This document shows positions 4,458 through 51,150 of a stretch of 64,000 nucleotides of DNA, piece by piece. The position numbers and the translations under genes are program-made. The stretch lies in assembly GCA_946222005.1 (NCBI GenBank), contig CAMIHP010000002.1:25322-89321 (forward strand), read 5' to 3'. How positions within the stretch are numbered: the stretch's first letter is position 1; every line of letters begins with the position of its first letter. The DNA comes from an uncultured Candidatus Saccharibacteria bacterium (GTDB lineage: Bacteria; Patescibacteriota; Saccharimonadia; Saccharimonadales; Saccharimonadaceae). The notes under the pieces were generated by a model, which did not search any database, was not told where the DNA came from, and saw nothing but the letters and a program-made list of their open reading frames with translations.

Positions 4458-4799
4458 GTGGTGGCAGCAAAAGGAACTGAAATGGTGCCGGCTATTTCTC
4501 GTTTTAAAGACTGGCGGAAAAAAAGACGGGAAGAAAAGCGGGAGAAACGGGCAGTCGCCTACAAAGAAGCGAGGAGAACTCTTTATGGTCCAATAGTAGA
4601 CCATGTGTCTTTCGGTCTTCGTGGTGCTCGCCCAGGAACAATGATTAATGTTCCGCTAGTACTCCCTGCTACTCGGACACAAGTAGCCTACGAGGAGAGA
4701 ATGCGCCAACAATTGATGACTCCAGAGGGGCAAAAACAGCACGACGACCTTATTGAATCTCTCACACAGAAAGACGAAGAACGGCGTTCTTGGGAGTAA
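4458..4799 (+). CDS. Hypothetical highly charged (Lys/Arg/Glu-rich) protein.
   Basis: ORF of 113 aa with reduced GC relative to its neighbours. No recognisable motif. Confidence 0.35.
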   Translation: MVAAKGTEMVPAISRFKDWRKKRREEKREKRAVAYKEARRTLYGPIVDHVSFGLRGARPGTMINVPLVLPATRTQVAYEERMRQQLMTPEGQKQHDDLIESLTQKDEERRSWE

Positions 4800-4886
4800 C
4801 AAGACCAAGGTGATAAAGTACTTTAAAGGCATTAAGTAACAAAATTTCTATAACTCTGAATTGCATCACCGTATGGTGATGCATAG

Positions 4887-32012: not shown

Positions 32013-33248
32013 GTGGACGATCCAATTCATATTACATCAGAGATTGGCCGGTTGAAGACAGTGCTCTTGCATCGGCCGGGTGAGGAGCTCGAGCATCTCA
32101 CACCAGAACATTTGCAGCGCCTATTGTTTGACGATATTCCGTATCTCAAGGTTGCGCAGGAGGAGCATGATCGCTTTGCAGAGCTGCTCCGCTCGCGTGG
32201 GGTCGAGGTGTTGTACTTAGATGAACTTGCCGCCGAGGCACTCGCTGACGAAGCAGTGCGGCGGCAATTTGTTGTTGAGATGCTGGTGGCATCGAAGCAA
32301 GACAACCAACGCGCATCGCGGACACTGGCTGAGTATTTGCTGAGCATGGAGCCACGCCAGATGGTGCGCAAGCTGATGGCGGGGGTGCGCAAAGATGAGA
32401 TTAGCCTGCCACCTGAGCAGCAGCAACTCCACACAATGGTGGCGCATGAGCAGTATCCATTCTATCTTGACCCAATGCCGAACCTCTACTTTACGCGCGA
32501 CCCAGCAGCGGCGATTGGCCAAGGTCTGACGATCAACAAGATGCACTGGCCAGCTCGGCGGCGTGAGTCGCTCTTTATGCGCTATATTATCGATTTCCAT
32601 CCGCGCTTTGCTGGCAAGAATGTACCGGTTTGGTATGATCGCAGCCAACCATTCTCGATTGAGGGCGGTGATGAGCTGGTGCTTAATAACCACACGATGG
32701 CCATCGGTATAAGCGAGCGTACCTCACCAGAAGCGATTGAGCTGATGGCGACGAAGCTCTTTGCCGAGTCGAATTTTGACACGGTGATTGCCCTTGAGAT
32801 CCCCAAGAGTCACGCCTTTATGCATCTGGATACCGTCTTTACGATGATTGACCACGACAAATTCACCATCCACCCAGAGATTCGGGGCTTTGAGGGGCGG
32901 ATGAATATCTTCGTCTTGCATAAAGCAGACGGGCAAGCCTACCCAACCATTACCAAAGAACATAATCTTGAGCAGGTGCTCAGCCAAGCCCTTGGCGTGC
33001 CGTCGATTACCTTGATCGAATGCGGTGGCGGTGATGATATCGCTGCAGCACGCGAGCAGTGGAATGACGGTAGTAATACCTTGGCGATTGCTCCTGGGGT
33101 GGTGGTCACCTACGACCGCAACTACGTTACCAACCAAAAACTGCGTGAGGCAGGTGTCGAAGTGCTGGAGATTACCGGCTCAGAGCTTGGCCGGGGCCGT
33201 GGCGGGCCACGCTGCATGAGTATGCCATTAATACGAGAGGATGTGTAA
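32013..33248 (+). CDS. arcA: Arginine deiminase.
   Basis: 411 aa. N-terminal '[22 protein letters not shown]'. C-terminal catalytic Cys 'GGPRCMSMP'. Confidence 0.9.
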
Positions 33249-34244
33249 ATGAACCTACCAACCAATCTAAAAAACCGCTCATTCCTAGCCCTCAAGGACT
33301 TTTCATCAGAGGAAATCCGGCAGATGCTCGATGTGGCACACGAGCTTAAGAAGCTTAAGCGCGAGGGCGTGCCGCACCGCTTACACGAGGGTAAGCAAGT
33401 CGCCCTCTTGTTTGAGAAGAATTCCACCCGTACACGCTGCGCCTTTACGGTAGCGGCCAATGACCTTGGCGTTGCGCCGGAGTTTCTCGGCAAGGATGAT
33501 ATCCAGCTCGGCAAAAAGGAGTCGGTTGAGGATACCGCGAAGGTGCTGGGCCGGATGTTTGATGGGATTGAGTTCCGCGGCTTTAAGCACTCGACGGTGG
33601 AAGACTTGGCCAAGCACGCTGGCGTACCAGTGTGGAATGGTTTGACCGATCAGTTCCACCCGACGCAGATTCTGGCCGACTTCATGACGCTCGAGGAGCA
33701 CATTGGGCCGCTGGCTGGCACGAAGCTGGTCTTTGTCGGTGATGGGCGCAACAATATGGCGAACAGCTTGATGATTGGCTCGGCCAAGATGGGCGTTGAT
33801 TTCCGTATCTTAGCGCCAGCTGAGCTGCACCCGAGCAGTGAGCTGGTTGATCTCGCTCGGGCGATTGCCGCCGAGACCGGCGCGCAGATTACCGTGACGG
33901 ATGATCGCGCCACGGCTCTCGAGGGAGCAGACGCGATCTACACCGACGTATGGGTGTCGATGGGTGAGGAGGCACAGTTCGCTGAGCGGATTGCCTTGCT
34001 TAAGCCATACCAAGTGAATCGTGCCATGCTCGATGAAACGCACAATCCACACGTTAAGTTCTTGCACTGCTTGCCAGCCTTCCACGATCTCAACACCGAG
34101 ACGGGGCTGAAGATCTACCAAGACTACGGCCTTGAGAGCATGGAAGTGACAGACGAGGTGTTCCGGAGTGAGCACAGTGTGGTCTTCGACGAAGCGGAGA
34201 ACCGCATGCACACGATCAAGGCAGTGATGGCACTGACGTTATAA
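33249..34244 (+). CDS. arcB: Ornithine carbamoyltransferase (catabolic).
   Basis: 'STRTRCAF' carbamoyl-phosphate-binding motif, 'HCLPA' motif, 331 aa. Starts 1 nt after the arcA stop. Confidence 0.9.
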
Positions 34245-34274
34245 CAAGTAACTGAGGCATAGGGGGCCTCACGT

Positions 34275-35750
34275 ATGACAACACAACAAACACAACAAGA
34301 GAGCAAGCTGGGGTGGCGATCACTCACCGGACTTGTTATCGGCAGTATGATTGGGGCTGGTATCTTCAATCTTGTCCGTAATACCGCAGAATCGGCTGGA
34401 CCACTGGCAACCATCATTGCCTGGCTCGTCACTGGGGTGGGGATGGTCTTCCTTGTCCTGAGTTTTCGCAACCTTGCCGAGAAGCGCCCCGACCTTGACG
34501 CTGGTATCTATAGCTATGCCGAGGCAGGGTTTGGCAAATATGTCGGGTTCAACTCGGCCTGGGGGTACTGGATCTCGGCCTGGATTGGCAACATTGCCTA
34601 TGCGGTAACGGCCTTTTCGGCGCTTGGCTATTTCTTCCCGCAGCTGTTTGCTGACGGCCAAAACTGGGCCTCGGTGATTGGTATGTCTATCCTGCTATGG
34701 GGCGTGCATTGCCTAATTCTCCGTGGTGTGCGCACGGCGAGTGTAGTGAACTTGCTCATCACGATTGCCAAGATTGTTCCGCTGATTATCTTCCTTGTGG
34801 CAATTATTGCCGCCTTTAAGCTCGATATCTTCTCGAAGGACCTCTGGGGCCTGGCTGGGAGTAATCTGAGCCTTGACGTTGTTCTGCGGCAGATCAAGGA
34901 TATGATGATCGTCACTGTCTGGGTGTTCATTGGCATCGAGGGTGCGGTGGTTTTTTCTGGTCGAGCCAAACAGCGCAGCGATGTCGTTAAGGCGACCTTC
35001 ATTGGCTTTGCTGCCGTGCTTGCGCTCTATGTCTTGATGACCGTCCTCGCCTTTGGTGTGGCAACGCAGCCGGAGCTGGCTGGCCTCAAAGACCCAGCGA
35101 TGGCACTCTTGCTTGAGAAGGTGGTTGGGCCGTGGGGTGCCTGGCTAGTCAATATCGGCTTGATCATTGCGGTGCTTGGTGGCTGGCTAGCCTGGACGAT
35201 GTTTGCAGCTGAGCTGCCCTACCAAGCGGCAAAGGTTGGCACTTTTCCGACGTTTTTTGCCAAAGAGAACAAGGTTGGCGTGCCAAAGAACTCACTGCTG
35301 GTGACCAACGCTTTGGTGCAGTTCTTTATCCTGACGATACCGCTGACGAGTGGCTCGGTGTATAACATTGGTATTGCGATTGCAACATCGGCAATTCTCG
35401 TACCTTATGCCTTGACGGCCTTCTACCAGCTGAAGCACTCGACTCTCGAGAAGCCAGAGACAAAGGGCCGGGCAGCCAATATCTTGATTGGTGTGATGGC
35501 TAGTGTGTATAGTGTCTGGCTGGTCTATGCCGCAGGCGTAGAGAACTTACTGGTGACGGTGTTCTTATATGTGCCGGGCATTGTGGTCTATGGCCTCATG
35601 CGCAAGCAGCAAGGCAAGAAGCCATTTACAGCGCTTGAGTGGCTGCTCGTTGTGGCACTGCTGGTGGCGCTGGCCTATGCGCTATTCCAGCTGCTGACTG
35701 GCGGGCTGGATAAGACACTTGGCATTACGATGCCGAAGCTGTTTAACTAA
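34275..35750 (+). CDS. arcD: Arginine/ornithine antiporter (APC superfamily).
   Basis: 491 aa with about 12-13 TM helices. 'GSMIGAGIFNL' APC signature. Lies within the arc operon. Confidence 0.8.
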   Translation: MTTQQTQQESKLGWRSLTGLVIGSMIGAGIFNLVRNTAESAGPLATIIAWLVTGVGMVFLVLSFRNLAEKRPDLDAGIYSYAEAGFGKYVGFNSAWGYWISAWIGNIAYAVTAFSALGYFFPQLFADGQNWASVIGMSILLWGVHCLILRGVRTASVVNLLITIAKIVPLIIFLVAIIAAFKLDIFSKDLWGLAGSNLSLDVVLRQIKDMMIVTVWVFIGIEGAVVFSGRAKQRSDVVKATFIGFAAVLALYVLMTVLAFGVATQPELAGLKDPAMALLLEKVVGPWGAWLVNIGLIIAVLGGWLAWTMFAAELPYQAAKVGTFPTFFAKENKVGVPKNSLLVTNALVQFFILTIPLTSGSVYNIGIAIATSAILVPYALTAFYQLKHSTLEKPETKGRAANILIGVMASVYSVWLVYAAGVENLLVTVFLYVPGIVVYGLMRKQQGKKPFTALEWLLVVALLVALAYALFQLLTGGLDKTLGITMPKLFN

Positions 35751-35813
35751 CGAGTAATCATGCGGTGTGCCGAGAAAGGTGCACCGCATTACATAAGAGA
35801 AAGGAGTGTGATG

Positions 35814-36584
35814 TTTCGCTACGCGATTACCCGTCGGCCAAGCCGTAGCTTGATCAACGGTATTAGCCAGACGCCGGAGAAGGGCAAGCCAGACTATGAG
35901 CGGGCAATGCAGCAGTACGATCAGTACGTTGCGCTGCTCCGCCAGTGCGGCCTTGAAGTGACGGTCTTGGAGCCCAATGAGGAGTATCCGGATAGCGTCT
36001 TCATTGAGGATAATGCTCTGTGTACGCCGCATGGGGTGGCGATTTTGTCGCGGCCTGGGGCAGCAAGCCGGCGCGGCGAGGCGAGCTTGCCCGATTTGCG
36101 CCAGGCACTCAGCCAGCATTATGATATTATCGAGCAGGTCGAAGCACCCGGCACCGTCGACCCCGGTGATATTATGATGGTGGGCGAGCACTACTACATT
36201 GGCCTGAGCCACCGCACCAACCAAGCGGCGGCCGAGCAGATTACTGCTATCCTTGAGCGCTACGGCATGACGGCCGAGACGGTTGAGGTGACAGGGGTTC
36301 TGCACCTGAAGGATGATGTGGTCTACTTAGATAACAACAACCTGATCGTTGCCAAGGCCTATGAGCACCACCCAGCTTTTGCAGCATTTAACAAGCTGGT
36401 GGTGGATGACGATGAGTACTATGCGGTGAATAGCTTGTGGATTAATGGCACGGTGATCGTGCCGCAGGGCTTTCCCAAGATTGAGCAGCAGATCCGCGAC
36501 TGTGGCTACCACGTAGAACTAATCGATACCAGTGAATTTGAAAAGATAACCGGCAGTTTGACCTGCATGTCGTTGAGGTTTTAA
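35814..36584 (+). CDS. DDAH/amidinotransferase-superfamily enzyme (dimethylarginine dimethylaminohydrolase-like).
   Basis: Roughly 256 aa. C-terminal catalytic Cys 'GSLTCMSLRF'. N-terminal 'FRYAITRRPSRSLINGIS' is typical of the DDAH fold. RBS 'AAAGGAG' upstream. Confidence 0.65.
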   Translation, partial: FRYAITRRPSRSLINGISQTPEKGKPDYERAMQQYDQYVALLRQCGLEVTVLEPNEEYPDSVFIEDNALCTPHGVAILSRPGAASRRGEASLPDLRQALSQHYDIIEQVEAPGTVDPGDIMMVGEHYYIGLSHRTNQAAAEQITAILERYGMTAETVEVTGVLHLKDDVVYLDNNNLIVAKAYEHHPAFAAFNKLVVDDDEYYAVNSLWINGTVIVPQGFPKIEQQIRDCGYHVELIDTSEFEKITGSLTCMSLRF

Positions 36585-36585
36585 G

Positions 36586-37527
36586 ATGAGTACAATTGTG
36601 ATTGCATTGGGTGGTAACGCCCTCCAAAGACAAGGTGAAGCAAGTGCGGCTGCCCAGCAGCGAGTGGCGAGTGAAACGGCGGCTCAGCTAGTGCCGCTGA
36701 TTGCAGCTGGGCATCGGCTGGTGATCGTCCACGGCAATGGGCCGCAGGTGGGGAACATCGTGCTCCATGAGGAGGCGATTAACACTCCTGAGGTGCCAAC
36801 GATGCCGCTTGATACGTGCGGGGCGATGAGCCAGGGGGAGATTGGCTACTGGCTGCAGCAGGCGCTGACGAATGAGTTTGCCCGCCATGGTATGCCAAAC
36901 CATGCCGTGACGATGGTGACGCAGACGGTGGTGGATGCGAATGACCCAGCGTTTGCAAATCCTACCAAGCCAATCGGGGTCTTTTATGCCTCCGAGGCTG
37001 AGGCACAGCAGTCGGCAGCAGGGCGTGATTTCGTCTTCAAAGAAGATGCGGGGCGAGGCTGGCGCCGCGTTGTGCCATCGCCACGGCCGCAGCGCGTGGT
37101 AGAAGAAGGTGCGGTGCGTGCCCTGCTTGATACCGGCTTAACAGTGGTGACGGCTGGCGGAGGCGGTATTCCGGTGGTTGAGAATGAAGCGCAGGGTATG
37201 GCTGGGGTCGAGGCGGTGATTGATAAGGACTTTACCGCTGCGGTGGTGGCTGATGCGATTGATGCCGAAGCCTTGGTGATCCTCACGGCCGTCGATAACG
37301 CGATGGTCGACTATGGTACGCCGCAGGCCCGTGCGATTAGTCAGACGACCAGCCAGGAGATGCAGGCTTATGCCGAGCAGGGGCAGTTTGCGTCCGGTAG
37401 TATGCTACCGAAGGTGCAGGCTGCGCTTAATTTCGTGGAAAAGCCTGGTCGGCGCGCCATCATTGCTAACCTAGAGCATGCCGCTGCCGCTGTGGCAGGC
37501 GAGCAAGGGACGATTATTGTGTCGTAG
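36586..37527 (+). CDS. arcC: Carbamate kinase.
   Basis: 'IVIALGGNAL', 'VIVHGNGPQVG', 313 aa. Starts 2 nt after the upstream stop. Confidence 0.9.
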   Translation: MSTIVIALGGNALQRQGEASAAAQQRVASETAAQLVPLIAAGHRLVIVHGNGPQVGNIVLHEEAINTPEVPTMPLDTCGAMSQGEIGYWLQQALTNEFARHGMPNHAVTMVTQTVVDANDPAFANPTKPIGVFYASEAEAQQSAAGRDFVFKEDAGRGWRRVVPSPRPQRVVEEGAVRALLDTGLTVVTAGGGGIPVVENEAQGMAGVEAVIDKDFTAAVVADAIDAEALVILTAVDNAMVDYGTPQARAISQTTSQEMQAYAEQGQFASGSMLPKVQAALNFVEKPGRRAIIANLEHAAAAVAGEQGTIIVS

Positions 37528-42639: not shown

Positions 42640-43875
42640 TCATTGATATGAGCGTAAAACTACCTTGAGGGTGTGTTTCTTACCAACACGCAAAATGTCA
42701 TCGTTAGCAAGTGGTGTATCTTCACTGGAAATTTTGGAGTCATTGATCTTCACGGCATTTTGCTTAATGAGCCGTCTGGCCTCGCCGCGACTTTTTGTGA
42801 TGCCCAGTCGAACAATGATATCGATAATTGACTCATGGGCATCCACCTGAACGATGTCAATATCCTTGGCAAGATTCTTCTGACTCACCTCAGAGACCCA
42901 TTGCTGCTCAGCATCAACGGCGGCGCTCGCTCCGTGGTACATTGACACTATCTCTCGAGCAAGATCCTTTTTGATATCGCGTGGGTTTTCTCCGTCGTTG
43001 AGCCGACTTTTAATTACAGCAATCTCACTCATAGACAGGCGCGTACAATCCACAAAACACTGGTAAATACCCGCATCCGCCAGCTGCATGATTTTAAAGA
43101 ACATATCTTTGGCATTCAGATCGAGACCCACACCGGTGCCAAGGCTTTTGCTCATTAATTTTTCGCCGGTTTCTGGGTTTTCGAGCAGTGTGGTTGTCAT
43201 GACAAACTTTTCTTTTTGCTTGTAGCGCTTGAGTAATGTACGGCCAGCCAGCATATTGAATGTTTGGTCGGTGCCACCAATCTCTACATCAACATCCATT
43301 GCCACGGAATCGTAGCCCTGCATCAGCGGATAGAAGAACTCATGGACGAAGAGTGGCTTCTCGGCAGCGACTCGCTTTTTGAACGCATCGCGCTCTAGCA
43401 TCTGCTGCACGGTAAAGTTGGAGGCAAGCTCCACAGAATCTTCAAATGTTAGCTTGGAGAGCCACTCCGAATTAAACTGGAATTCTATCGGGTTGTCGAT
43501 ATCGTTAAAGTCTAGAATCTTGCCAATTTGTGCCTTAAATGTCTGCAGGTTCTCCAGCACTTGTTCACGTGTTAGCTGCACGCGCATCGAAGTCTTATCG
43601 CTCGGATCACCGATCATGGCGGTAAAGTCGCCAATTAGCACAATAATCCGGTGGCCAAGAGCGTGGAACCGTTCGAGTATCAGATAATTTGTTGAGTGCC
43701 CAAGATGAACATAGTTCGCAGTTGGGTCAATACCAAGATAGAATGTGAGGCGGCGGCCACTTTGTAGCTCCTTTTTGAGGCTATCTTTGCTCGGAAGAAT
43801 TTCGGCAACTGAGCGAGATAGCGCTTCATCGATCAAGTGTTCGTCGGTAATAACGTGGTGCGCTTGAGTATTCAT
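42640..43875 (-). CDS. tyrS: Tyrosine--tRNA ligase.
   Basis: HIGH motif 'HLGH', 'KLMSKS' KMSKS motif, and a C-terminal S4-like domain. Start chosen at 'MNTQAHH'. Confidence 0.9.
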   Translation of the reverse strand: MNTQAHHVITDEHLIDEALSRSVAEILPSKDSLKKELQSGRRLTFYLGIDPTANYVHLGHSTNYLILERFHALGHRIIVLIGDFTAMIGDPSDKTSMRVQLTREQVLENLQTFKAQIGKILDFNDIDNPIEFQFNSEWLSKLTFEDSVELASNFTVQQMLERDAFKKRVAAEKPLFVHEFFYPLMQGYDSVAMDVDVEIGGTDQTFNMLAGRTLLKRYKQKEKFVMTTTLLENPETGEKLMSKSLGTGVGLDLNAKDMFFKIMQLADAGIYQCFVDCTRLSMSEIAVIKSRLNDGENPRDIKKDLAREIVSMYHGASAAVDAEQQWVSEVSQKNLAKDIDIVQVDAHESIIDIIVRLGITKSRGEARRLIKQNAVKINDSKISSEDTPLANDDILRVGKKHTLKVVLRSYQ

Positions 43876-44098
43876 GTATAGTATTTTACTACATACGAGA
43901 AGAGATAAAAAACTGAACATGCCTTGAGATCACTTGTTATGTGCCGCTGGAGCCCTATGATTTACGGTGTATCATAATGTGAAAGGGAACTGTGAGTGTG
44001 CAAATGTCTTGTTTATACATGGATGTATGACATCGCTTGTACTACTTATGCTACGGTTGATGGTAGTGCTAGGTCTGAAGATACACTACAATAATAAT

Positions 44099-44638
44099 AT
44101 GAACCAAGAATGGAACGTTATAAGTCAAAAGAAGTTGGTCGACTCGTCGTGGTACAAGCTCAATATTGAAACCGTCAGGCTCCCGTCAGGCAAAGTCCTC
44201 GATGATTATTACGTGCGAGAGGGTATGAACGCCGTTTTGATCGTTCCACGCACTCATGAAGGCAAATTTTTACTGGTGCGTCAGTACAAACACGGAGCGC
44301 AGCAAAGTGTTATAGAATTTCCTGCGGGTAAGATTGATGCGGGTGAATCTGCTTTAATTGCTGCAAAAAGGGAATTATATGAAGAGACTGGAGGCACCTC
44401 CAGTCTTTTTGTAGAGGGACCTACATTTTTTGAGGACCCTACAAATAGCCGTGTCAAGATAGCGATCGTCTTTGCTGATAATGTCACTATAAAGCATAGG
44501 CAACATCTTGACGATAATGAGGATATTGAAGTAATACAGCTAACAACTGACGAGCTACGAACTATGCTTATGAACAATGAGCTATCTGTGGCAGCATCCG
44601 TAGCAGCAGGTTGGATAGCACTAGAGAGGAGATGGTAA
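44099..44638 (+). CDS. NUDIX hydrolase (ADP-ribose pyrophosphatase-like), low GC.
   Basis: Nudix box 'GKIDAGESALIAAKRELYEETG'. The longest ORF starts at 43967, but its first 44 aa look non-coding. Confidence 0.65.
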   Translation: MNQEWNVISQKKLVDSSWYKLNIETVRLPSGKVLDDYYVREGMNAVLIVPRTHEGKFLLVRQYKHGAQQSVIEFPAGKIDAGESALIAAKRELYEETGGTSSLFVEGPTFFEDPTNSRVKIAIVFADNVTIKHRQHLDDNEDIEVIQLTTDELRTMLMNNELSVAASVAAGWIALERRW

Positions 44639-44848
44639 CATGAATACATACGAGTCTGGGACAATAAACCAGGTATTGAAAAAAGCAAACTGATGATTGA
44701 GGTGATTGATAAGGAATGAGGAGTAGGACGGAGACTGTTTATCGATATGGTATCTAGACAGATATAACTCATAAAAGGGAAAATCAGAAGTTCTATATTC
44801 GTGCTAGAATAGTCAGAGAGTAGGAAGTAGGGGGTGAGGGTAGAAAAT

Positions 44849-45610
44849 ATGCCCAAGAAGAAACTAAATAATAATACCAAACTAAGCTTCCGTACCATTC
44901 TTCTCCGTAGTATTCTCTATGTAATTGGTGTACCAACAGTCATCATGCTTCTCCTTGTTGGCGGATTCTATCTCAAATTATGTGCTGAAGCTAGCCAAGC
45001 TCAAGCAGCAATGAAAACATATCTACATAGTAAATATGGTGAAGAATTTATCGTCGAACGACCAGAAAAGAATGGAAGCGGGCTCGGTGTAGAAGGGTGG
45101 TTTGAAGCAACAGCCTACCCGAAGAATCACACAGACATCCGCTTCATTGTTATGCTGTCATCCTCAGGGAAGCATGATGGCTATGCTGGTGCTGTATGGT
45201 CAAAAGAAGAGACTGATCGACTCAAACCTATTATTCAGCGTATCTTTAGTAAAGATGTAGTGTATAGTGTAACCATCCAATCGTCTATGACGCTACAAAC
45301 GAAAGATATACAAGTTGACGGTGTAATACCACGTTTTACACAAGCGGCGGCACAATATAAGCAGCAAATTCCATATAATATCACTATTCAAAAAACACAC
45401 CAAACACGAGAATATCAGGAAAAAATGCGCATCGTCGATAATCTTAAAGAGCTTGCAAAGGATCTGCCAGATACCGTTGACACTACTATTCGCTACCAAG
45501 CACAAACATCTGGAGGTAAGAAGTTTGATTTAGATATAACAATCATGGCATTAAAATCCACACCACAAGAAACATTAGTCACAATGTTTCAAGAAAAGGA
45601 GAGTCTATAA
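44849..45610 (+). CDS. Paralog 1 of a four-member family of type-II membrane-anchored proteins (conserved N-terminal TM anchor, divergent extracytoplasmic C-domain). Candidate immunity or variable surface protein.
   Basis: 'MPKKKLNNNTKLSFRTILLRSILYVIGVPTVIMLLLVGGFYLK' is shared almost identically with paralog 3, and clearly with paralogs 2 and 4. ATG preceded by a G-rich RBS. Confidence 0.6.
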   Translation: MPKKKLNNNTKLSFRTILLRSILYVIGVPTVIMLLLVGGFYLKLCAEASQAQAAMKTYLHSKYGEEFIVERPEKNGSGLGVEGWFEATAYPKNHTDIRFIVMLSSSGKHDGYAGAVWSKEETDRLKPIIQRIFSKDVVYSVTIQSSMTLQTKDIQVDGVIPRFTQAAAQYKQQIPYNITIQKTHQTREYQEKMRIVDNLKELAKDLPDTVDTTIRYQAQTSGGKKFDLDITIMALKSTPQETLVTMFQEKESL

Positions 45611-45612
45611 AT

Positions 45613-45684
45613 ATGAGCATAACAATAGAGCAATATCTTGCACTAAGTGCACTTGCCTATAAAATACAACCTTTAAAAGAATAA
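45613..45684 (+). pseudogene. Degenerate 5' fragment of the lipase/RTX gene (24 codons) trailing paralog 1.
   Basis: Translation 'MSITIEQYLALSALAYKIQPLKE*' against the lipase N-terminus 'MVKDEQFLTLSSLAYEPFSD'. The core 'EQYLALSALAY' matches 'EQFLTLSSLAY'. Confidence 0.55.
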
Positions 45685-45710
45685 CTAGAAAGTTCCATAA
45701 TTACACTACT

Positions 45711-45734
45711 AATAGTCGCGTAGCTAAAATAGGG
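45711..45734 (+). promoter_or_regulatory. Conserved upstream element of the paralog array (copy before paralog 2), containing a -10-like TAAAAT.
   Basis: 'aatagtcgcgtagctaaaataggg' here matches 'acaatagtcgcgtagccaaaaaatagggg' at 46751-46779, with a weaker 'agaatagtc' at about 44807. Confidence 0.4.
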
Positions 45735-45752
45735 ATCTTGAGAGCAGAAAAT

Positions 45753-46505
45753 ATGTCCAATAAAAAACCAAACGATAACAGCAAACTAAGCTTCCGCACC
45801 ATCCTCTTCCGTAGTATTCTCTACGTGATTATCATTCCGACAGTTATCATGTTGGTAATATTTGGTATATTCTACACAAAATCTACTATTGATGATCATA
45901 TTGCTCAATCACATATGCGGTCATACCTCAAACGTAAGTATGGCCAAGAATTTATAGTAGAGAATTATCGAATCGAGGGGGCTGGCCTTGGAGTAGATGG
46001 TGTTGCCAAGGCTGAGGCGTATGCTAAAAGTGACCACACGATTCGATTTATGGTGAAGGGGTTTCCGGGGGACAGTCCATACAGTAATAACTATTGGGAT
46101 GGATACCCCGATATGACATGGGCAAAACACCTCAAAAAGGATATTGATCCTATGATAAAAAACGTATTTGGTGCCGACACATCGCTCGCATCAATAGAAG
46201 TTTACAGTATACCTGCAGTGAACCAAAGGATAGGAAAAGAAATACCATTGTATCGTGATGCCTTCCAGCGATTTGGTAAAGATATACATGTCGCTGTACG
46301 TATAAAGAGTAGGGTTGTCCATAATGATGTAGCCGCACAGATATACCAGATAATCGTCAAGCTGCGAGAGTTCGGTGTGTCGCTATCTATTAATTATGAG
46401 AACCCCATGGTATATGTTGCATTAGTCGAAGAAACAAGTATACGCGGTATACATTCACCACAGGATGTAAGGAAATATATAGAAATGAAGGGGGAAAAGC
46501 TATGA
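45753..46505 (+). CDS. Paralog 2 of the membrane-anchored family.
   Basis: 'MSNKKPNDNSKLSFRTILFRSILYVIIIPTVIMLVIFGIFYTK'. The C-domain is divergent but alignable in patches with the other three paralogs. Confidence 0.6.
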   Translation: MSNKKPNDNSKLSFRTILFRSILYVIIIPTVIMLVIFGIFYTKSTIDDHIAQSHMRSYLKRKYGQEFIVENYRIEGAGLGVDGVAKAEAYAKSDHTIRFMVKGFPGDSPYSNNYWDGYPDMTWAKHLKKDIDPMIKNVFGADTSLASIEVYSIPAVNQRIGKEIPLYRDAFQRFGKDIHVAVRIKSRVVHNDVAAQIYQIIVKLREFGVSLSINYENPMVYVALVEETSIRGIHSPQDVRKYIEMKGEKL

Positions 46506-46543
46506 AAATAGAACAATGCTTGGTGTTAAGCTCATTATCTTAA
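46502..46543 (+). pseudogene. Second degenerate 5' fragment of the lipase gene (14 codons) trailing paralog 2.
   Basis: 'MKIEQCLVLSSLS*' against the lipase 'MVKDEQFLTLSSLAY'. Confidence 0.5.
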
Positions 46544-46750
46544 TAGTACATCCCTAAGTAGTTTTGCCTCTAGCAGCGAGAAGCCACCATTGAGGCGCTC
46601 ATAAAACAGGGAAAAATTGACAATTATCGCCATAGCGATGGATCTATTTCTCTCGAATGCAAACCCCTCTCCTCTCTCATATCTTGACACCTCATCAACG
46701 CTACGACTTTCAGAGTAAGAAGAATAACTCAATAGTTCTGCATTTGTGCT

Positions 46751-46779
46751 ACAATAGTCGCGTAGCCAAAAAATAGGGG
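46751..46779 (+). promoter_or_regulatory. Conserved upstream element of the paralog array (copy before paralog 3).
   Basis: A duplicate of the 45711-45734 element, including the TAGCCAAAAAAT -10-like box. Confidence 0.4.
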
Positions 46780-46797
46780 TTGTTGGGAGAAGAGAAT

Positions 46798-47538
46798 ATG
46801 TCCAAGAAGGAACTAAATAATAACACCAAACTAAGCTTCCGTACCATTCTTCTCCGTGGTATTCTCTATGTCATCATTATTCCAACGGCTGTTATGATTC
46901 TCCTTATTGGTGGATTCTATCTCAAGGCCGATATTGAGGCGAATCAAGCTCAAGCAACAATGAAAACTTATTTACAAAACAAATATAATGAGGAATTCAT
47001 CGTTGAGAAACCAGAGCGGAAGAGCAGTGGCCTCGGCGTAGAGGGAGTACTAGCTGCCAATGCTTACCCTATACGGGATCCTCATATACGATTTTCTGTA
47101 AACACCTCATCGAATGGCAATCAAGATAACTATCCAGGTGTAATATGGTCCCGCTCTCAGAATGATAAGTTAATAAAGGATCATATCATAAATAACTCAT
47201 GGGCGCAGACCGACATCACTGTCAGTCTTGCAGACAATACAGCACAGTCGCTGAGCGGTACACCTAAAACATACGAAGAAGCGATAGCGTCTTATGGAAA
47301 AGATATTCACTACATAATAAGTGTTAATCGTAATACAAATCAATTGGCTGTCGATAACCGGGATCGGTACTATCTCATAAGCCTTATTAGATATATCAAT
47401 CAGCAAAAAGTTGGCTACCGTATTATACATTACAGCATACATGATACGAAGATGGACGCAGACATAGTGTGCAATATACAGGTAGAAGGTACGCGTCTAT
47501 TAGATGAAAAACAAGCCAATGAATGCTTTAGAAAATAA
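46798..47538 (+). CDS. Paralog 3 of the membrane-anchored family.
   Basis: The first roughly 130 nt are near-identical to paralog 1 at the DNA level. The C-terminal domain is divergent. Confidence 0.6.
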   Translation: MSKKELNNNTKLSFRTILLRGILYVIIIPTAVMILLIGGFYLKADIEANQAQATMKTYLQNKYNEEFIVEKPERKSSGLGVEGVLAANAYPIRDPHIRFSVNTSSNGNQDNYPGVIWSRSQNDKLIKDHIINNSWAQTDITVSLADNTAQSLSGTPKTYEEAIASYGKDIHYIISVNRNTNQLAVDNRDRYYLISLIRYINQQKVGYRIIHYSIHDTKMDADIVCNIQVEGTRLLDEKQANECFRK

Positions 47539-47556
47539 GGGGTGGGGACAGAAAAC

Positions 47557-48318
47557 ATGCACGAGAAAGAACCAGACGAGAATAATAGGCTAAGCTTTCG
47601 CACCATCCTCTTTCGTGGTATCCTCCGCGTTATCATTATTCCGACATGCGTCATACTTCTATTAACTGGTGCATTAATCGGTATATTTCATATTAAGTAT
47701 CTTATAGAGGCTCATCAAGCTCAGGCTGAAATGCGCGCCTACCTAGAGAAAAAATATCACCAGCACTTCATTATCAAGAACTATCGAATTGAAGGAGGAG
47801 GATTCGCAAGAAGAGGCGGCAAAGTTGCAGATGCACATAGAGAGGGTAGTTCTTATACCTTTCGTGTTTTAGAGAAAGATCACCGGCTCTATCGTGATAA
47901 CTACCTCTCAGCACTTTACAATGAGCAGGAAGAAAAAGATCTTACCAAGATGGTTAAAAAATTGTCTATACCTGCAGTAAAATATATGCCAGATATTACA
48001 ATTGCTCCTGATGTAGCTGATGGGATACAGGGTACGCCAGCTTTTGCTGAGATGTTGCAAAAGTATGGAGACCATATTATATATGAAGTATCTATTGTTG
48101 TAGTAGGGGATCAGGTAAAAGAAGAAGATGTCCAAAACGTAAGAAAACTTATGGAGTATGCCCAATCAAAAAACCCGAGAAGTTATGCTGTGAGATATGT
48201 TGTAAATAGCAGAACTGAAGATGCACGATATATTTGTCAGGAGTATGGAGGTATAAGCGAGAAAACGGCGCAAGAAACTTCTAAGGATTGCTTTAAAAAG
48301 AGTAAGGGAAGGATATAG
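47557..48318 (+). CDS. Paralog 4 of the membrane-anchored family. Directly followed by the lipase/RTX gene.
   Basis: 'MHEKEPDENNRLSFRTILFRGILRVIIIPTCVILLLTG'. Stop at 48318 and the lipase ATG at 48321. Confidence 0.6.
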   Translation: MHEKEPDENNRLSFRTILFRGILRVIIIPTCVILLLTGALIGIFHIKYLIEAHQAQAEMRAYLEKKYHQHFIIKNYRIEGGGFARRGGKVADAHREGSSYTFRVLEKDHRLYRDNYLSALYNEQEEKDLTKMVKKLSIPAVKYMPDITIAPDVADGIQGTPAFAEMLQKYGDHIIYEVSIVVVGDQVKEEDVQNVRKLMEYAQSKNPRSYAVRYVVNSRTEDARYICQEYGGISEKTAQETSKDCFKKSKGRI

Positions 48319-48320
48319 TA

Positions 48321-50909
48321 ATGGTAAAAGACGAACAGTTTTTAACTTTGAGCTCATTGGCATATGAGCCGTTTTCTGATAATGATATCAACAAATCTTT
48401 AAAAGAAATTATTAAGAAAGTACCTAGAAACAACCGTCTTGAACTTAAACCTCTCTCCTCCCTCGCATCCTGGCACCTCATTAACGCCACAACCACTTCA
48501 TCTGGTATGTCGGCTATTGCTGTGCAAGATCCAGCCACCAAGGACATTGTCTTTGCCTATCGCGGAACGGATATTGATAAGAATATCTGGGAGGCGATGA
48601 AAGATATTGAGTCGGATATTGCGATTGCATCGAGTGGAAATGTTTTTGTGCAGGATGGGCTGAACCAATTCCACGATGCTTACACCTTCTATACCGAGAC
48701 GATCAAGAAAGTTGGTGGCGGTGCTCATGTAGGCACCAAGAGCTTCACTGGCCATTCACTCGGTGGTGGACTAGCGCAGTATATGGCGTATAAAACTGGT
48801 GGTGCATATAAGACGGTCACCTTCGACGCGGTAGGGATTGGCCAAGTGCTGAAGAATGTCAACCCGCGGGACTATGATACCTCAGTAACGGACTACACCA
48901 ATGAGCACGATATCATTGGTATGTATGGTGTGCAGCTGGGCCGCACAGTGTACATTAAGGATATGAACAGTGATGAGCTGCGTAAGAAGGACCGTGACTA
49001 TGTGACAATACTGCAGTATGCGCAGGGTGCCATTGCTGTGGCGGCACGCAATGGCGAGCATGCCTCAGCAATGGGGTGGATGGCAGCTGCAAGCATAGCA
49101 TCGCTCGGGTATGCAGTGAATCGCACTAGCCAAGAGCTAGCTTTCGATGCACATCGTCCAAGTAGTTTATTAACTGATGATGGTACGCTAGCAGCCACTG
49201 TACCGCAGGGAGACTCCATCACGAATACATTGGCTGGCGCACTTCGTACAACACTGGAAGTATATACCGGTATTGCCAATGGTGTTCATTTCATCGTTGT
49301 TGAGATTCCAAGTGCTACAGCTGAAGAGCTTGTGCGAATAACGCTCTCTGTCGCTGAAAGTGGTAAGAAGATCATAGTCGATGTAGCACAGGTGATTCGC
49401 GATCAGGTGAATATCCTTACCTCTAGTGTATATGAAACAAGCCGGATTATGGGTGAGCAAGCCGATGCCTTTGCTCGTGTGCTGATGACACAACTTGCTG
49501 GGGCTACGCAATGGACAACTTCGCTCCGCCTCGACATTGCCGTGCTGAGTGCACTGAGTGGTGCGGCCAGAATAACGCGCGATACACTTGCTGCTATAGT
49601 AGAGACACCTGATGCGATGACACGTTGGCTGCAGATGGTCTTTGGTGCAAGTGCACATGTCGTTGGTACAGCAGCAGACGATTCTATTGATGGTTATGAT
49701 CATATCCCAGACTATGGCGTGACGAAGCGTGCGGTCTATGTAGAGGGCCGAGAAGGGAATGATTACGTAACAGGAACGAATTCTGATGATACATTGATGG
49801 GTGATGCAGGGAATGACACTATCATGGGCAAAGGTGGTAATGATATGATTTTTGGCGGTGATGGTGACGATTCTCTATATGGTGATGGTGGTAGTGATAC
49901 AATTTTTGGCGGTGCTGGCGATGACAACCTTAATGGTTCAGAAGGTGATTCTAATAAGCTCTATGGTGGCGCAGGTGATGATGGAATAAATGGTTCCGGG
50001 TTGATTGTTGGCGGCGCAGGTGATGACCGGATCGACTCTCAATTTGGGAACGATACATATATCTATAACCGCGGTGATGGTAATGACACGATTAGCGACT
50101 TTGGCGGCATTGACACTGTACGGTTTGGTGCGGGTATCGTGCCAAGCGGTGTAACGGCACGCTATGAGAGCCGCCCGTATGGCGCGCCAGGCAATGATTA
50201 TGATCTTGTCTTAGATATAAAAGGCTCTGGTAGTATTCGCATCAAAGACTATTATGGTTCGAGTGACTGGGCAGGACGGAACCGTCCCGTACCGGGTCAT
50301 CGTGTCGAGCGCTTTGTTTTTGCAGATGGCACCGTGTGGGATGAGCAGGCAATCCGCACCATGACGCATAACTTACAAGGAACAGCTGACGATGATTCTA
50401 TTGACGCCTTTGATGATGATGGTATCACGGTACATAGTGGAGCTGGTAACGACACGGTGCGTGGCGCGAGGCAAGACGCAAATGTGCTCTATGGGGACGA
50501 CGGTGATGACAGCCTCATTGGTGGTGAGAAAAATGATATGCTGACTGGTGGGCAGGGTAATGATGTGTTGTATGGTGCAGGTGGCAACGATATCTATACC
50601 TTCAAGCGAGGGGATGGTGTTGACACGATAAGTGATGATGACGGCGTTGACACACTGCAGTTTGGCGAAGGCATTAATCCGCGTGATGTGACTGTTCGAC
50701 GTATCCATCTTTCATCATATGAAAGTCTCGAGCTTGCTATCACGGGTACAGGTGATAAAATCATTATCCAAGGATATTTTGGCTCGTACTCATACGACGG
50801 GCTGCATGAGAGCACAAGCCAGCAGATCGAAAAAGTGGTTTTTGCTGATGGTACGGTATGGACACCGGAGATAATCGCGCAAATGCTTGTAGAGCACACG
50901 AGTGAATAG
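48321..50909 (+). CDS. Large secreted-effector-like protein. N-terminal lipase class 3 / Mbeg1-like alpha/beta-hydrolase domain, then RTX nonapeptide Ca2+-binding repeats and two haemolysin-type Ca-binding-related (HCBP_related-like) domains.
   Basis: 'VFAYRGTDIDKNIWEAMKDI' and the nucleophile elbow 'FTGHSLGGGLAQYMA'. Repeated 'GNDTIMGKGGNDMIFGGDGDDSLYGDGGSDTIFGGAGDDNLNG' repeats. Two copies of '...RGDG(N/V)DTISD..G(I/V)DT(V/L)(R/Q)FG.GI.P..VT.R.......VFADGTVW'. No N-terminal signal peptide. Confidence 0.8.
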   Translation: MVKDEQFLTLSSLAYEPFSDNDINKSLKEIIKKVPRNNRLELKPLSSLASWHLINATTTSSGMSAIAVQDPATKDIVFAYRGTDIDKNIWEAMKDIESDIAIASSGNVFVQDGLNQFHDAYTFYTETIKKVGGGAHVGTKSFTGHSLGGGLAQYMAYKTGGAYKTVTFDAVGIGQVLKNVNPRDYDTSVTDYTNEHDIIGMYGVQLGRTVYIKDMNSDELRKKDRDYVTILQYAQGAIAVAARNGEHASAMGWMAAASIASLGYAVNRTSQELAFDAHRPSSLLTDDGTLAATVPQGDSITNTLAGALRTTLEVYTGIANGVHFIVVEIPSATAEELVRITLSVAESGKKIIVDVAQVIRDQVNILTSSVYETSRIMGEQADAFARVLMTQLAGATQWTTSLRLDIAVLSALSGAARITRDTLAAIVETPDAMTRWLQMVFGASAHVVGTAADDSIDGYDHIPDYGVTKRAVYVEGREGNDYVTGTNSDDTLMGDAGNDTIMGKGGNDMIFGGDGDDSLYGDGGSDTIFGGAGDDNLNGSEGDSNKLYGGAGDDGINGSGLIVGGAGDDRIDSQFGNDTYIYNRGDGNDTISDFGGIDTVRFGAGIVPSGVTARYESRPYGAPGNDYDLVLDIKGSGSIRIKDYYGSSDWAGRNRPVPGHRVERFVFADGTVWDEQAIRTMTHNLQGTADDDSIDAFDDDGITVHSGAGNDTVRGARQDANVLYGDDGDDSLIGGEKNDMLTGGQGNDVLYGAGGNDIYTFKRGDGVDTISDDDGVDTLQFGEGINPRDVTVRRIHLSSYESLELAITGTGDKIIIQGYFGSYSYDGLHESTSQQIEKVVFADGTVWTPEIIAQMLVEHTSE

Positions 50910-51150
50910 CGTATAACCTCTGTCTTGGCTCCATCTCATCTGTTGTATTAGCTTTATTGTCTTTATATTGGTAGGCTAGATGGTTTGGGCTACTTTCTCA
51001 ATATTGGTGCTTAGGCAGAATACTAGCTTTCATAACTTCCTAGAGGAAGAATAAGACAGCGAGAAATAATAAATGGGCTGATATGAGCACGTCGCCTCTG
51101 CAGGAGTCTCTTTAAGCTAGCTTTCATCTCTCTCCTGCACAATACCACAC

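What the first reader, a model, noticed from the sequence alone, without database searches (positions are those of the whole stretch)
44849..48318. Four tandem paralogs with near-identical 5' ends and diverged 3' ends
P1 and P3 share roughly 130 nt of almost identical DNA at their 5' ends. This region encodes a basic N-terminus plus one TM helix, 'LSFRTILLRSILYVI..PT.IMLLL.GGFYLK'. P2 and P4 keep the same anchor. The roughly 200-aa C-terminal domains are only patchily alignable.

A constant anchor with a variable ectodomain suggests gene conversion or recombination at the conserved 5' segment, with diversifying selection on the exposed domain. That fits immunity proteins that track variable toxins. 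It also fits antigenically variable surface proteins.
Basis: seen in the sequence. Interest (0 to 1): 0.7.

Follow-up and report, generated by a model that had tools for sequence, protein, structure and literature searches.

The report
Shuffled immunity-like gene array beside lipase
In an oral Saccharibacteria (TM7) genome, four membrane-anchored paralogs directly upstream of a secreted lipase look like lipase-immunity genes, and related strains have reshuffled them by recombining at the shared 5' end.

Summary
Four tandem genes (44849-48318, + strand) share a 142-nt 5' block and have saturated divergence elsewhere.

In about 37 related Saccharibacteria genomes the same five body types recur at 92-100% aa identity, with dN/dS of 0.15-0.29. 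Array order and content differ between genomes.

The 5' ends travel with array position, not with body type. P1 in this window carries a roughly 60-nt conversion tract from a P3-type copy. Each cassette also drags along a stub of a lipase 5' end.

Half of the genomes have lost the lipase through one shared deletion, yet they keep intact arrays under equal purifying selection. DUF5037 genes in Lachnospiraceae lie among known immunity genes.

Best reading (about 0.55): this is a polyimmunity array against the lipase. Recombination at the 5' block is supported. Diversifying selection and antigenic variation are not. It is a new member of a known kind (compare TilA and TilM arrays in Staphylococcus). 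No function has been tested.

The parts
44849..45610 (+). P1, body type T1. A 253-aa single-pass membrane protein with a DUF5037-like ectodomain.
   Evidence: ORF and translation. TM core at residues 22-40, with 6 K+R before it. AF2 pLDDT 82. Foldseek top hit 4gl6.
44849..44911 (+). Gene-conversion tract of about 60 nt inside P1, copied from a T3-type (P3-like) gene.
   Evidence: The tract is 93-97% identical to T3 copies and only 67-80% identical to other T1 copies. Both flanks are 90-100% T1-like. dS between P1 and P3 in codons 1-24 is 0.07.
44802..44810 (+). Extended -10-like element TGCTAGAAT inside the conserved upstream block of P1. The counterparts are TGCTACAAT at 46747-46755 before P3 and ACTACTAAT at 45705-45713 before P2.
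   Evidence: Conserved upstream sequence in alignment A2. Coordinates. Promoter function is inferred only; the generic scan did not single these elements out.
45613..45672 (+). Stub of a lipase 5' end (MSITIEQYLALSALAYKIQP) left behind after P1.
   Evidence: tblastn with lipase N-terminal variants.
45753..46505 (+). P2, body type T2, 250 aa.
46502..46699 (+). Decayed, T2-linked lipase 5' end with in-frame stops. It runs up to the conserved junction LECKPLSSLIS*HLIN.
   Evidence: 68% identity to the lipase N-terminus that follows T2 in other genomes.
46798..47538 (+). P3, body type T3, 246 aa. Two C-terminal Cys at positions 225 and 243.
47557..48318 (+). P4, body type T4, 253 aa. Two C-terminal Cys at positions 227 and 245. 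It lies 18 nt after P3, and its stop codon is 2 nt before the lipase start.
48321..50909 (+). 862-aa class-3-type lipase domain (GHSLGG) followed by RTX nonapeptide and HCBP_related repeats. No signal peptide and no TM helix.
   Evidence: Pfam hits HemolysinCabind at 6e-22, HCBP_related at 1e-27 and Lipase_3 at 17.7 bits, which is below the 22-bit cutoff. Ser, Asp and His are invariant in homologs that are 30-40% identical. NCBIfam RTX and SA1320-family partial hits.
48321..48440 (+). Cassette-linked variable N-terminal segment of the lipase (the T4-linked variant MVKDEQFLTLSSLAYEPFSDND...). It ends at the conserved junction ELKPLSSLASWHLIN.
   Evidence: The lipase N-terminus differs according to the cassette type immediately upstream, while the rest is 95-100% identical.
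44835..44976 (+). Conserved 5' block, the reference copy of a 142-nt direct repeat. Other copies are at 45739-45880, 46784-46925 and 47543-47684. It is the substrate for recombination.

Best explanation
Proposal: the four genes form a homogeneous polyimmunity array against the lipase encoded immediately downstream, in a human-oral Saccharibacteria (TM7) genome.

Architecture. Each protein has a short basic tail in the cytoplasm and one TM helix. It then carries a two-lobed alpha/beta ectodomain of about 200 aa, remotely homologous to DUF5037, on the outer face of the membrane.

Inferred mechanism. The ectodomain binds and blocks the secreted RTX-lipase before it can hydrolyse the cell's own membrane lipids. 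That lipase may come from the cell itself or from neighbouring Saccharibacteria.

Shown here: family evolution.
- The species complex holds five old, stable cassette types (T0-T4). This window carries T1 to T4.
- Each cassette is a unit made of three parts: a shared 5' block, a type-specific body, and a type-specific stub of a lipase 5' end.
- Homologous recombination and short-patch gene conversion in the shared 5' block reassort, delete and duplicate cassettes. Recombination also happens at a conserved lipase junction (ELKPLSSLASWHLIN).
- Closely related genomes therefore differ in array order and content.

Shown here: lipase polymorphism. The lipase is present or absent between genomes, and the arrays persist where it is absent.

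Status of the steps.
- Shown: the anatomy, the remote homology, the recombination, the purifying selection, and the persistence of arrays without the lipase.
- Inferred: the binding, the inhibition, and what the lipase attacks.
For: 1. Organism and distribution.
- 39 of 40 genome loci are Saccharibacteria MAGs.
- A profile search finds 607 cluster representatives at E<=1e-3.
- No Pfam or NCBIfam family matches.

2. Conserved linkage to a lipase.
- In every close locus the array abuts a lipase gene or its remnant.
- Relatives at 24-38% identity also sit directly upstream of a lipase. Those lipases carry Lipase_3, SPM and RTX domains (L003, L045-48, L051-53).
- In this window the P4 stop codon lies 2 nt before the lipase ATG.

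3. Topology.
- There is one TM helix, with 5-6 K+R before it and 1 after it.
- T3, T4 and distant members keep a C-terminal Cys pair.

4. Fold and homology.
- AF2 models have pLDDT 85 and 82.
- Foldseek for P1 also places 4gl6 first.
- A broad profile hits 4gl6 at E 0.005.
- hhalign against DUF5037 gives 94% probability and E 1e-7.

5. DUF5037 context.
- Lachnospiraceae DUF5037 genes encode lipoproteins (lipobox LSGC).
- They lie in clusters with SUKH_5, SMI1_KNR4, Imm33, Imm59 and PoNi_N genes, often in several copies.
- Such clusters are the heterogeneous polyimmunity loci of Zhang et al. 2012 (PMC3482391).

6. Persistence without the toxin.
- 19 of 37 genomes share one deletion that removes lipase nt 455-2589.
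- They still keep 3.2 intact paralogs per genome, against 3.5 in lipase-intact genomes.
- Body dN/dS is 0.19, against 0.18 in lipase-intact genomes.

7. Purifying selection on every type, with dN/dS 0.15-0.29.

8. Recombination.

9. Orphan lipase 5' stubs lie after cassettes, both in this window and elsewhere.

10. Experimentally characterised analogs.
- TilA (DUF576) arrays lie upstream of the N-terminal lipase domain of TslA (PMC10730906).
- TilM (DUF1433) proteins have an N-terminal TM anchor and an extracellular domain. They occur in variable tandem copies and are kept when the lipase is lost (PMC13560087).
- Conserved blocks drive recombination between tandem immunity paralogs (PMC9484751).
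Against: - No binding, inhibition or toxicity has been tested.
- The lipase catalytic domain is nearly invariant (95-100% aa) across genomes that carry five very different paralog types. 'One immunity type per toxin variant' is therefore not demonstrated.
- Only the first 45-65 lipase residues co-vary with the upstream cassette. That co-variation could reflect physical linkage alone.
- No second lipase locus was seen, but only 64 kb of this genome and about 20 kb of the others were examined.
- DUF5037 itself has no tested function, so its immunity role rests on gene neighbourhood.
- All comparison genomes are MAGs or metagenome contigs from one species complex. Tandem repeats can be misassembled, and the genomes are not independent samples. 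Against that worry, the same array orders recur in independent assemblies.
Confidence: 0.55

Rival explanations
1. The paralogs are lipase helpers. They would be membrane-anchored foldases, secretion adaptors or tethers, similar to Lif/LipB steric chaperones or effector-specific adaptors. Each would be matched to one lipase N-terminal variant.
For: - The gene lies immediately upstream of the lipase with a 2-nt gap.
- This linkage is conserved over deep divergence.
- The lipase N-terminal 45-65 aa differ according to the adjacent cassette type.
- An N-terminal anchor with an outside domain is also the Lif architecture (established knowledge).
Against: - Arrays stay intact, with the same dN/dS, in the 19 genomes whose lipase is deleted.
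- Three to five diverged copies per single lipase is not expected for a dedicated chaperone.
- The fold is alpha/beta and DUF5037-like, not the all-helical Lif fold. There is no Pfam Lipase_chap hit.
- DUF5037 relatives lie in immunity clusters with no lipase nearby.
Confidence: 0.12
2. The paralogs are exposed surface proteins that act on the host bacterium or the environment, as adhesins, host-range determinants or variable antigens. Their position next to the lipase would be incidental or merely co-regulatory.
For: - The predicted ectodomain is on the epibiont surface.
- The repertoire differs combinatorially between strains.
- The genes lie in a low-GC island, 38-43% against 53-57% in the flanks.
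- Function independent of the cell's own lipase fits persistence in lipase-less genomes.
Against: - Each type is 92-100% conserved, with dN/dS 0.15-0.29, so there is no sign of antigenic diversification.
- Linkage to a lipase is kept in relatives only 24-38% identical.
- Lipase 5' stubs travel with the cassettes.
- The nearest homologous family sits among immunity genes.
Confidence: 0.15
3. The shared 5' end reflects only purifying selection on a signal-anchor sequence after old tandem duplications. There would be no ongoing recombination.
For: - In the TM segment (codons 25-45), synonymous sites are nearly saturated between paralogs (pS 0.54-0.78).
- Distant relatives keep the anchor architecture but not its sequence.
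Against: - dS is 0.07 in codons 1-24 of P1 against P3.
- The conversion tract is bounded on both sides.
- Identical 72-nt 5' ends occur on different body types.
- The tail follows array position, not body type.
- Among orthologs the 5' block is more diverged (dS 0.17-0.48) than the body (0.08-0.14).
Confidence: 0.03

Closest known systems
TilM (DUF1433) arrays beside Tsl2-family phospholipases of the Staphylococcus aureus T7SS (PMC13560087)
   Same: - Consecutive, non-identical genes.
- Each encodes an N-terminal TM signal anchor plus an extracellular globular domain.
- Copy number varies between strains.
- The genes are adjacent to a lipase whose catalytic domain is N-terminal.
- The toxin is often absent or frameshifted while the immunity genes are retained.
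   Different: - The protein family is different: no DUF1433 Pfam hit, and about 250 aa with a DUF5037-like fold.
- The lipase carries C-terminal RTX repeats (T1SS-type) rather than an LXG-like T7SS domain.
- The organism is a Patescibacterium.
- Neutralisation is untested here.
TilA (DUF576 tandem lipoproteins) upstream of TslA (PMC10730906)
   Same: - The immunity array lies at the 5' side, next to the end of the gene that encodes the N-terminal lipase domain.
- Copies are multiple, non-identical and variable in number.
- The proteins are surface-tethered.
   Different: - The TslA toxin domain is polymorphic between strains. Here the catalytic domain is nearly invariant.
Recombination between tandem T7SS immunity paralogs (esaG, tipC) through conserved sequence blocks (PMC9484751)
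   Same: - Blocks of high similarity inside otherwise diverged tandem paralogs act as recombination substrates.
- This causes gain, loss and mosaicism of immunity genes.
   Different: - Here there is one block at the 5' end plus a second junction inside the toxin gene.
- Whole cassettes (body plus lipase stub) are reordered.
- The 5' tail tracks position in the array.
DUF5037 (PF16440; PDB 4gl6, Ruminococcus gnavus)
   Same: - Remote profile homology: hhalign 94%.
- Shared N-terminal motif (x)YLxxxYGxEFxV.
- Extracytoplasmic tether.
- Multi-copy occurrence.
   Different: - No Pfam-level match.
- DUF5037 proteins are lipoproteins of Firmicutes.
- Their function is untested.
- In the two loci examined, they are not next to a lipase.
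CDI/Rhs-type polymorphic toxin loci with orphan toxin-immunity modules, and polyimmunity loci (PMC3482391)
   Same: - Displaced toxin-gene fragments remain next to retained immunity genes.
- Homogeneous tandem immunity arrays.
- Recombination at conserved junctions.
   Different: - The arrangement is a mirror image. The toxin domain is N-terminal, so immunity genes and orphan stubs lie upstream and the stubs are 5' ends.
- Only about 50 N-terminal residues of the toxin vary.

Membership tests
DUF5037 (PF16440) superfamily | Match to the Pfam model at or above its threshold | tested here: not met
   No DUF5037 hit for the four paralogs, for 23 relatives or for 62 distant relatives.
DUF5037 (PF16440) superfamily | Remote sequence homology (profile level) | tested here: met
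   hhalign of the family profile against a DUF5037 alignment gives 94.2% probability and E 1.1e-7 over 91 columns. hmmsearch of the broad profile puts 4gl6 first at E 0.0046.
DUF5037 (PF16440) superfamily | Same fold as the solved member 4gl6 | tested here: met
   [not shown]
Lipase immunity proteins of the TilM (DUF1433) or TilA (DUF576) kind | Sequence membership in DUF1433 or DUF576 | tested here: not met
   No Pfam hit even at E <= 10.
Lipase immunity proteins of the TilM (DUF1433) or TilA (DUF576) kind | Extracytoplasmic globular domain tethered to the membrane | tested here: met
   A single hydrophobic core (KD 2.4-2.9), with 5-6 K+R on the N side and 1 on the C side. AF2 shows a long helix followed by an alpha/beta domain. 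This is a prediction only.
Lipase immunity proteins of the TilM (DUF1433) or TilA (DUF576) kind | Variable number of non-identical tandem copies next to the toxin-domain end of a lipase gene | tested here: met
   One to five copies in more than 15 different orders across about 37 genomes, always upstream of the lipase or its remnant.
Lipase immunity proteins of the TilM (DUF1433) or TilA (DUF576) kind | Immunity genes retained when the toxin gene is lost | tested here: met
   19 genomes with the lipase deletion keep 3.2 intact copies each, with dN/dS 0.19. Lipase-intact genomes have 3.5 copies and dN/dS 0.18.
Lipase immunity proteins of the TilM (DUF1433) or TilA (DUF576) kind | Binds the lipase and neutralises its toxicity | not testable with these tools
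   This needs biochemistry or genetics.
Polymorphic toxin system (Zhang et al. 2012) | The toxin domain is polymorphic between strains and is matched by cognate immunity | tested here: inconclusive
   The catalytic domain is 95-100% identical. Only the first 45-65 residues differ, in step with the adjacent cassette. Relatives at 30-40% identity exist in other Saccharibacteria.
Polymorphic toxin system (Zhang et al. 2012) | Orphan toxin fragments beside immunity genes | tested here: met
   Lipase 5' stubs lie at 45613-45672 and 46502-46699 in this window and after cassettes in many loci.
Lipase-specific foldase (Lif/LipB) | Helical Lif fold or Pfam Lipase_chap match, and a one-to-one dependence on its lipase | tested here: not met
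   No Pfam hit. The fold is alpha/beta. Several copies accompany one lipase, and they persist without it.
Class 3 lipase (downstream gene) | GxSxG nucleophile elbow with a Ser-Asp-His triad, and a Pfam Lipase_3 match | tested here: met
   GHSLGG is present, and S, D and H are invariant in five homologs at 30-40% identity. Lipase_3 scores 17.7 bits here, below the 22-bit cutoff, but 22.3 and 23.1 bits in relatives. Enzyme activity is untested.
RTX / type I-secreted exoprotein (downstream gene) | C-terminal nonapeptide repeats, and a dedicated ABC exporter with a membrane fusion protein | tested here: inconclusive
   The repeats are clear (HemolysinCabind 6e-22, HCBP_related 1e-27). No exporter was found among the array's annotated neighbours in this window; the rest of the 64 kb was not scanned for one. 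A C39-ABC gene and a HlyD-like gene follow the homologous giant lipase in L052.

The most novel reading that the evidence does not exclude
The locus is a mirror-image polymorphic toxin system of Patescibacteria.

- A T1SS-type lipase would be used either to open host (Actinomycetota) membranes for lipid harvest or to kill rival epibionts on the same host cell.
- The upstream cassettes would be the cell's protection against it.
- Each cassette would be matched to the variable N-terminal segment of a lipase variant.
- Recombination, fed by natural transformation at the shared 5' block and the lipase junction, would reassort toxin heads and immunity genes. That would produce producer strains and immune 'cheater' strains within one oral population.
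Probability: 0.25. Interest if true: 0.75.

Novelty: new member of a known kind. Interest (0 to 1): 0.6.

Why it matters
Saccharibacteria are ultrasmall obligate epibionts that cannot make their own lipids. [quoted passage not shown]

- A secreted lipase guarded by a dedicated protective gene array is a concrete, testable candidate. It could serve host-membrane attack, or warfare between epibionts.
- These genomes are only about 1 Mb, yet they spend 3-6 kb on the array. They keep it even after losing the lipase, which argues that exposure to this lipase is a real selective force in the mouth.
- The finding gives a first functional hypothesis for an unannotated family with about 600 cluster representatives.
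- It also gives a first functional hypothesis for DUF5037, a structural-genomics orphan.
- It shows that the 'conserved block plus variable body' recombination logic of Firmicute immunity arrays also operates in Patescibacteria.

Tried and rejected
- Pfam and NCBIfam scans of the four paralogs found nothing. Scans of 23 and 62 relatives gave only weak YfjL_N hits (best E 6.7e-6 in 5 of 62 members) and noise.
- A PDB sequence search with the shallow profile gave only chance hits. The broader profile was needed to reach 4gl6.
It was repeated with A4.
- The afdb50 fold library was not available.
- The Halanaerobacter hit (L050) was weak, and its neighbours were uninformative. I do not count it as a family member.
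- The generic promoter and terminator scan did not single out the conserved upstream element. No tRNA was found in the window.
- Literature searches for a Saccharibacteria lipase or immunity system found no paper on this locus. The preprint on host defence against epibionts (PMC13622651) does not mention lipases. A search for 'DUF5037' returned no papers.
- I considered a site-specific recombination site in the 5' block. Third-codon-position conservation is spread evenly over codons 1-42 with no sharp core. None of the array's Pfam-annotated neighbours is a recombinase. General homologous recombination is the simpler reading.
- I considered that the stubs are maintained silent cassettes for switching the lipase head. 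The stubs in this window are truncated or carry stop codons, so they look like decaying remnants.

Full report
**1. The observation**

Four same-strand ORFs lie at these coordinates:

| Gene | Coordinates | Length |
|---|---|---|
| P1 | 44849-45610 | 253 aa |
| P2 | 45753-46505 | 250 aa |
| P3 | 46798-47538 | 246 aa |
| P4 | 47557-48318 | 253 aa |

- The likely start codon is the ATG of the 'ENM' motif.
- A repeat finder reports a 142-nt direct repeat at the start of each gene. Identity to the P1 copy is 74%, 85% and 62%.
- In 20-codon windows, nucleotide identity falls from 67-95% at the start to 25-55% in the 3' two-thirds.
- P1 and P3 are 95% identical over the first 60 nt and 83% over 132 nt.
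- Synonymous divergence between P1 and P3 is 0.07 in codons 1-24 and saturated (pS about 0.8) everywhere else. The likeness at the very 5' end is therefore recent DNA exchange, not only constraint on the peptide.
- Protein-level conservation continues to about residue 115. There the synonymous sites are saturated, so this part is ordinary structural constraint on the ectodomain.

**2. Surroundings and organism**

- P4 ends 2 nt before an 862-aa ORF at 48321-50909.
- That ORF has an N-terminal class-3-type lipase domain, followed by RTX nonapeptide and HCBP_related repeats.
- Ser (in GHSLGG), Asp and His are invariant in homologs only 30-40% identical.
- The lipase has no signal peptide and no TM segment.
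- The array and lipase lie in a low-GC stretch: 38-43% for the array and 43-49% for the lipase, against 53-57% in the flanks.
- The neighbours are housekeeping genes: TyrRS and NUDIX upstream; GT2, NUDIX and a histidine kinase downstream.
- A genome-collection scan places the family in Saccharibacteria MAGs in 39 of 40 loci. Most come from human oral samples.

**3. The family**

- The four proteins match no Pfam or NCBIfam model.
- A word-indexed search finds only 8-25 relatives. An exhaustive profile search finds 607 cluster representatives at E <= 1e-3.
- All members have one hydrophobic helix. In P1-P4 it is preceded by 5-6 Lys/Arg and followed by 1, which predicts N-in/C-out.
- Distant members keep this architecture but not its sequence.
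- T3, T4 and the distant members keep a pair of C-terminal cysteines.
- AlphaFold2 models are confident for P4 (pLDDT 85) and P1 (pLDDT 82). They show a long N-terminal helix followed by a two-lobed alpha/beta domain.

Evidence that the family is a remote branch of DUF5037:

| Test | Result |
|---|---|
| Foldseek, P1 model | 4gl6 ranked first |
| Profile of 62 distant members against PDB sequences | 4gl6 first, E 0.0046 |
| hhalign against a DUF5037 alignment | 94% probability, E 1e-7 |

The Pfam DUF5037 model itself does not detect the family.

**4. Comparative anatomy of the array**

I collected 10 metagenome loci and about 34 close genome loci. Flanking genes are 92-97% identical at the nucleotide level, so these genomes form one species complex with a syntenic locus.

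- The paralog bodies fall into five discrete types. T1-T4 are P1-P4 of this window. T0 is absent here.
- Each type is 92-100% identical in protein between genomes.
- Order and content differ between genomes. Observed orders include 1-2-3-4, 0-1-2-3-4, 1-2-3-4-0, 0-1-4-3-2, 3-4-1-2, 3-4-0, 0-3-4-2 and 1-2.
- The same orders recur in independent assemblies. This argues against assembly artefact.
- Bodies are under purifying selection, with dN/dS 0.15-0.29.

**5. Recombination at the 5' block**

- Among orthologs, the 5' block is more diverged (dS 0.17-0.48) than the body (0.08-0.14). This is the reverse of the pattern among paralogs.
- Identical 72-nt 5' ends occur on T0 and T1 bodies and on T0 and T2 bodies. 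For 22 of 134 genes, the nearest 5' neighbour belongs to another type.
- The cytoplasmic tail MxxKKL[SG]DN is carried by 26 of 34 first-in-array cassettes and 1 of 83 others. It occurs on T0, T1, T2 and T3 bodies. The Fisher p value is about 6e-18, but it is inflated because the genomes are related.
- Breakpoints therefore lie inside the conserved block.
- In this window, P1 matches other T1 genes upstream of the ATG (90-97%) and from about +65 onward (97-100%). Between +1 and about +63 it matches T3 genes (93-97%).

**6. Lipase stubs and lipase polymorphism**

- The lipase body is 95-100% identical between genomes. Its first 45-65 residues take one of at least four forms, according to the cassette type immediately upstream. 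The junction is at ELKPLSSLASWHLIN.
- Remnants of such lipase 5' ends follow cassettes inside arrays. In this window they are a 20-codon stub after P1 (45613-45672) and a decayed stub with stop codons after P2 (46502-46699).
- A cassette is therefore the shared 5' block, plus a body, plus a lipase head. The array is a record of past replacements.
- 19 of 37 genomes share one deletion, from lipase nt 455 to 59 nt past the stop codon. It occurs at a microhomology of about 10 nt, inside the codons of GHSLGG.
- Those genomes keep as many intact paralogs (3.2 against 3.5 per genome) under the same constraint (dN/dS 0.19 against 0.18).

**7. Deep conservation of the gene pair**

- Relatives at 24-38% identity in other Saccharibacteria also lie immediately upstream of lipase-RTX genes. 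Some of those genes encode giant proteins.
- Again there are often two copies with a lipase fragment between them.
- In one such locus a C39-ABC exporter gene and a HlyD-like gene follow. This fits type I-like export of the lipase.

**8. Context of the homologous family**

- DUF5037 proteins of Lachnospiraceae are lipoproteins.
- In the two loci examined, they lie in multi-copy clusters with SUKH_5/SMI1_KNR4, Imm33, Imm59 and PoNi_N genes.
- These clusters are the heterogeneous polyimmunity loci described by Zhang et al. (PMC3482391).

**9. Interpretation**

The best-supported reading is a homogeneous polyimmunity array. The proteins would be surface-tethered inhibitors that protect the membrane against the adjacent secreted lipase, including lipase made by neighbouring cells.

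This reading accounts for:
- the outside topology;
- the conserved pairing with a lipase;
- the tandem, variable copy number;
- persistence after toxin loss;
- the orphan toxin stubs;
- the immunity-type neighbourhood of the homologous family.

It mirrors tested systems in Staphylococcus:
- TilA arrays lie upstream of the N-terminal lipase domain of TslA (PMC10730906).
- TilM proteins have a TM anchor and an outside domain. They come in variable tandem copies and are retained without the toxin (PMC13560087).
- Conserved blocks drive recombination between tandem immunity paralogs (PMC9484751).

Shown here: the anatomy, the remote homology, the recombination, the selection regime and the presence/absence polymorphism.

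Inferred only: the binding, the inhibition and the lipase's target.

**10. Weak points**

- Five very different types face a nearly invariant catalytic domain.
- The co-variation between cassette type and lipase head may be linkage only.
- DUF5037 has no tested function.
- All comparison sequences are MAGs or metagenome contigs from related genomes.

**11. Rivals**

- A helper or chaperone role (about 0.12) is disfavoured by persistence without the lipase, by the copy number and by the fold.
- A host-directed or antigenically variable surface role (about 0.15) is disfavoured by the strong conservation of each type and by the deep lipase linkage.
- 'Purifying selection only' (about 0.03) is contradicted by the dS pattern and the mosaic evidence.

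**12. Verdict**

- Recombination at the 5' block is supported.
- Diversifying selection and antigenic variation are not supported.
- The locus is a new member of a known kind of system, a lipase with a tandem immunity array. It lies in a phylum where none had been described in the papers I could search, and it uses an unannotated protein family.

Noticed in passing
window 32013-37527: An arginine deiminase gene cluster. It holds arginine deiminase, ornithine carbamoyltransferase, an amino-acid permease, a second amidinotransferase-like gene and carbamate kinase. From my own knowledge, this system is typical of mammal-associated Saccharibacteria.
   Followed up: partly
L011 13472-14046 and 18 other loci; window equivalent 48775-50968: One shared deletion allele removes lipase nt 455-2589 plus 59 nt downstream. 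It occurs at a microhomology of about 10 nt (GGTRGRCTAG), inside the codons of the GHSLGG motif. It is found with many different array orders, so it is either old or has spread by recombination.
   Followed up: yes
L001 1-6905 and L009 1-6506: In two metagenome contigs, the array's left neighbour is not TyrRS/NUDIX but a type IV secretion gene set (TrbL/pilin-like, TraC-like, VirB4-type ATPase, CHAP hydrolase, VirD4-type coupling protein). I did not determine whether this is a rearrangement, an inserted element or a functional link.
   Followed up: no
L052 8745-16738; L003 1337-11337: In other Saccharibacteria the lipase homolog is a giant protein with lipase, SPM and many RTX/HCBP repeats (1868 aa and more than 3763 aa). 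In L052 it is followed by a C39-peptidase ABC exporter gene and a HlyD-like gene.
   Followed up: partly
window 43000-51000: A low-GC stretch (38-49%) in a genome of 53-57% GC. It covers the TyrRS gene, NUDIX, the array and the lipase. No tRNA gene was found anywhere in the window. No integrase or recombinase was seen among the Pfam-annotated neighbours of the array.
   Followed up: partly
window 4001-5000: A second local GC dip (0.43), near a 190-aa ORF on the minus strand at 4887-5459. Not examined.
   Followed up: no
L054 5600-12432 and L055 1-8056: Lachnospiraceae clusters of small genes that mix several DUF5037 copies with SUKH_5, SMI1_KNR4, PoNi_N, Imm33, Imm59, DUF4274 and DUF6652. In L054 the cluster lies next to a DUF87/TraG-type ATPase. 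This suggests that DUF5037, a structural-genomics orphan, is an immunity family.
   Followed up: partly
window 44281-44898 (minus strand): A 205-aa ORF lies antisense to the NUDIX gene and to the start of P1. It overlaps two better-supported genes, so I take it to be spurious.
   Followed up: no
L025 and L029, lipase alignment columns about 540-720: Two genomes carry a lipase whose middle part, between the lipase domain and the RTX repeats, is only 67-84% identical to the others. The rest is 90-100% identical, which suggests a second recombining segment inside the lipase.
   Followed up: no
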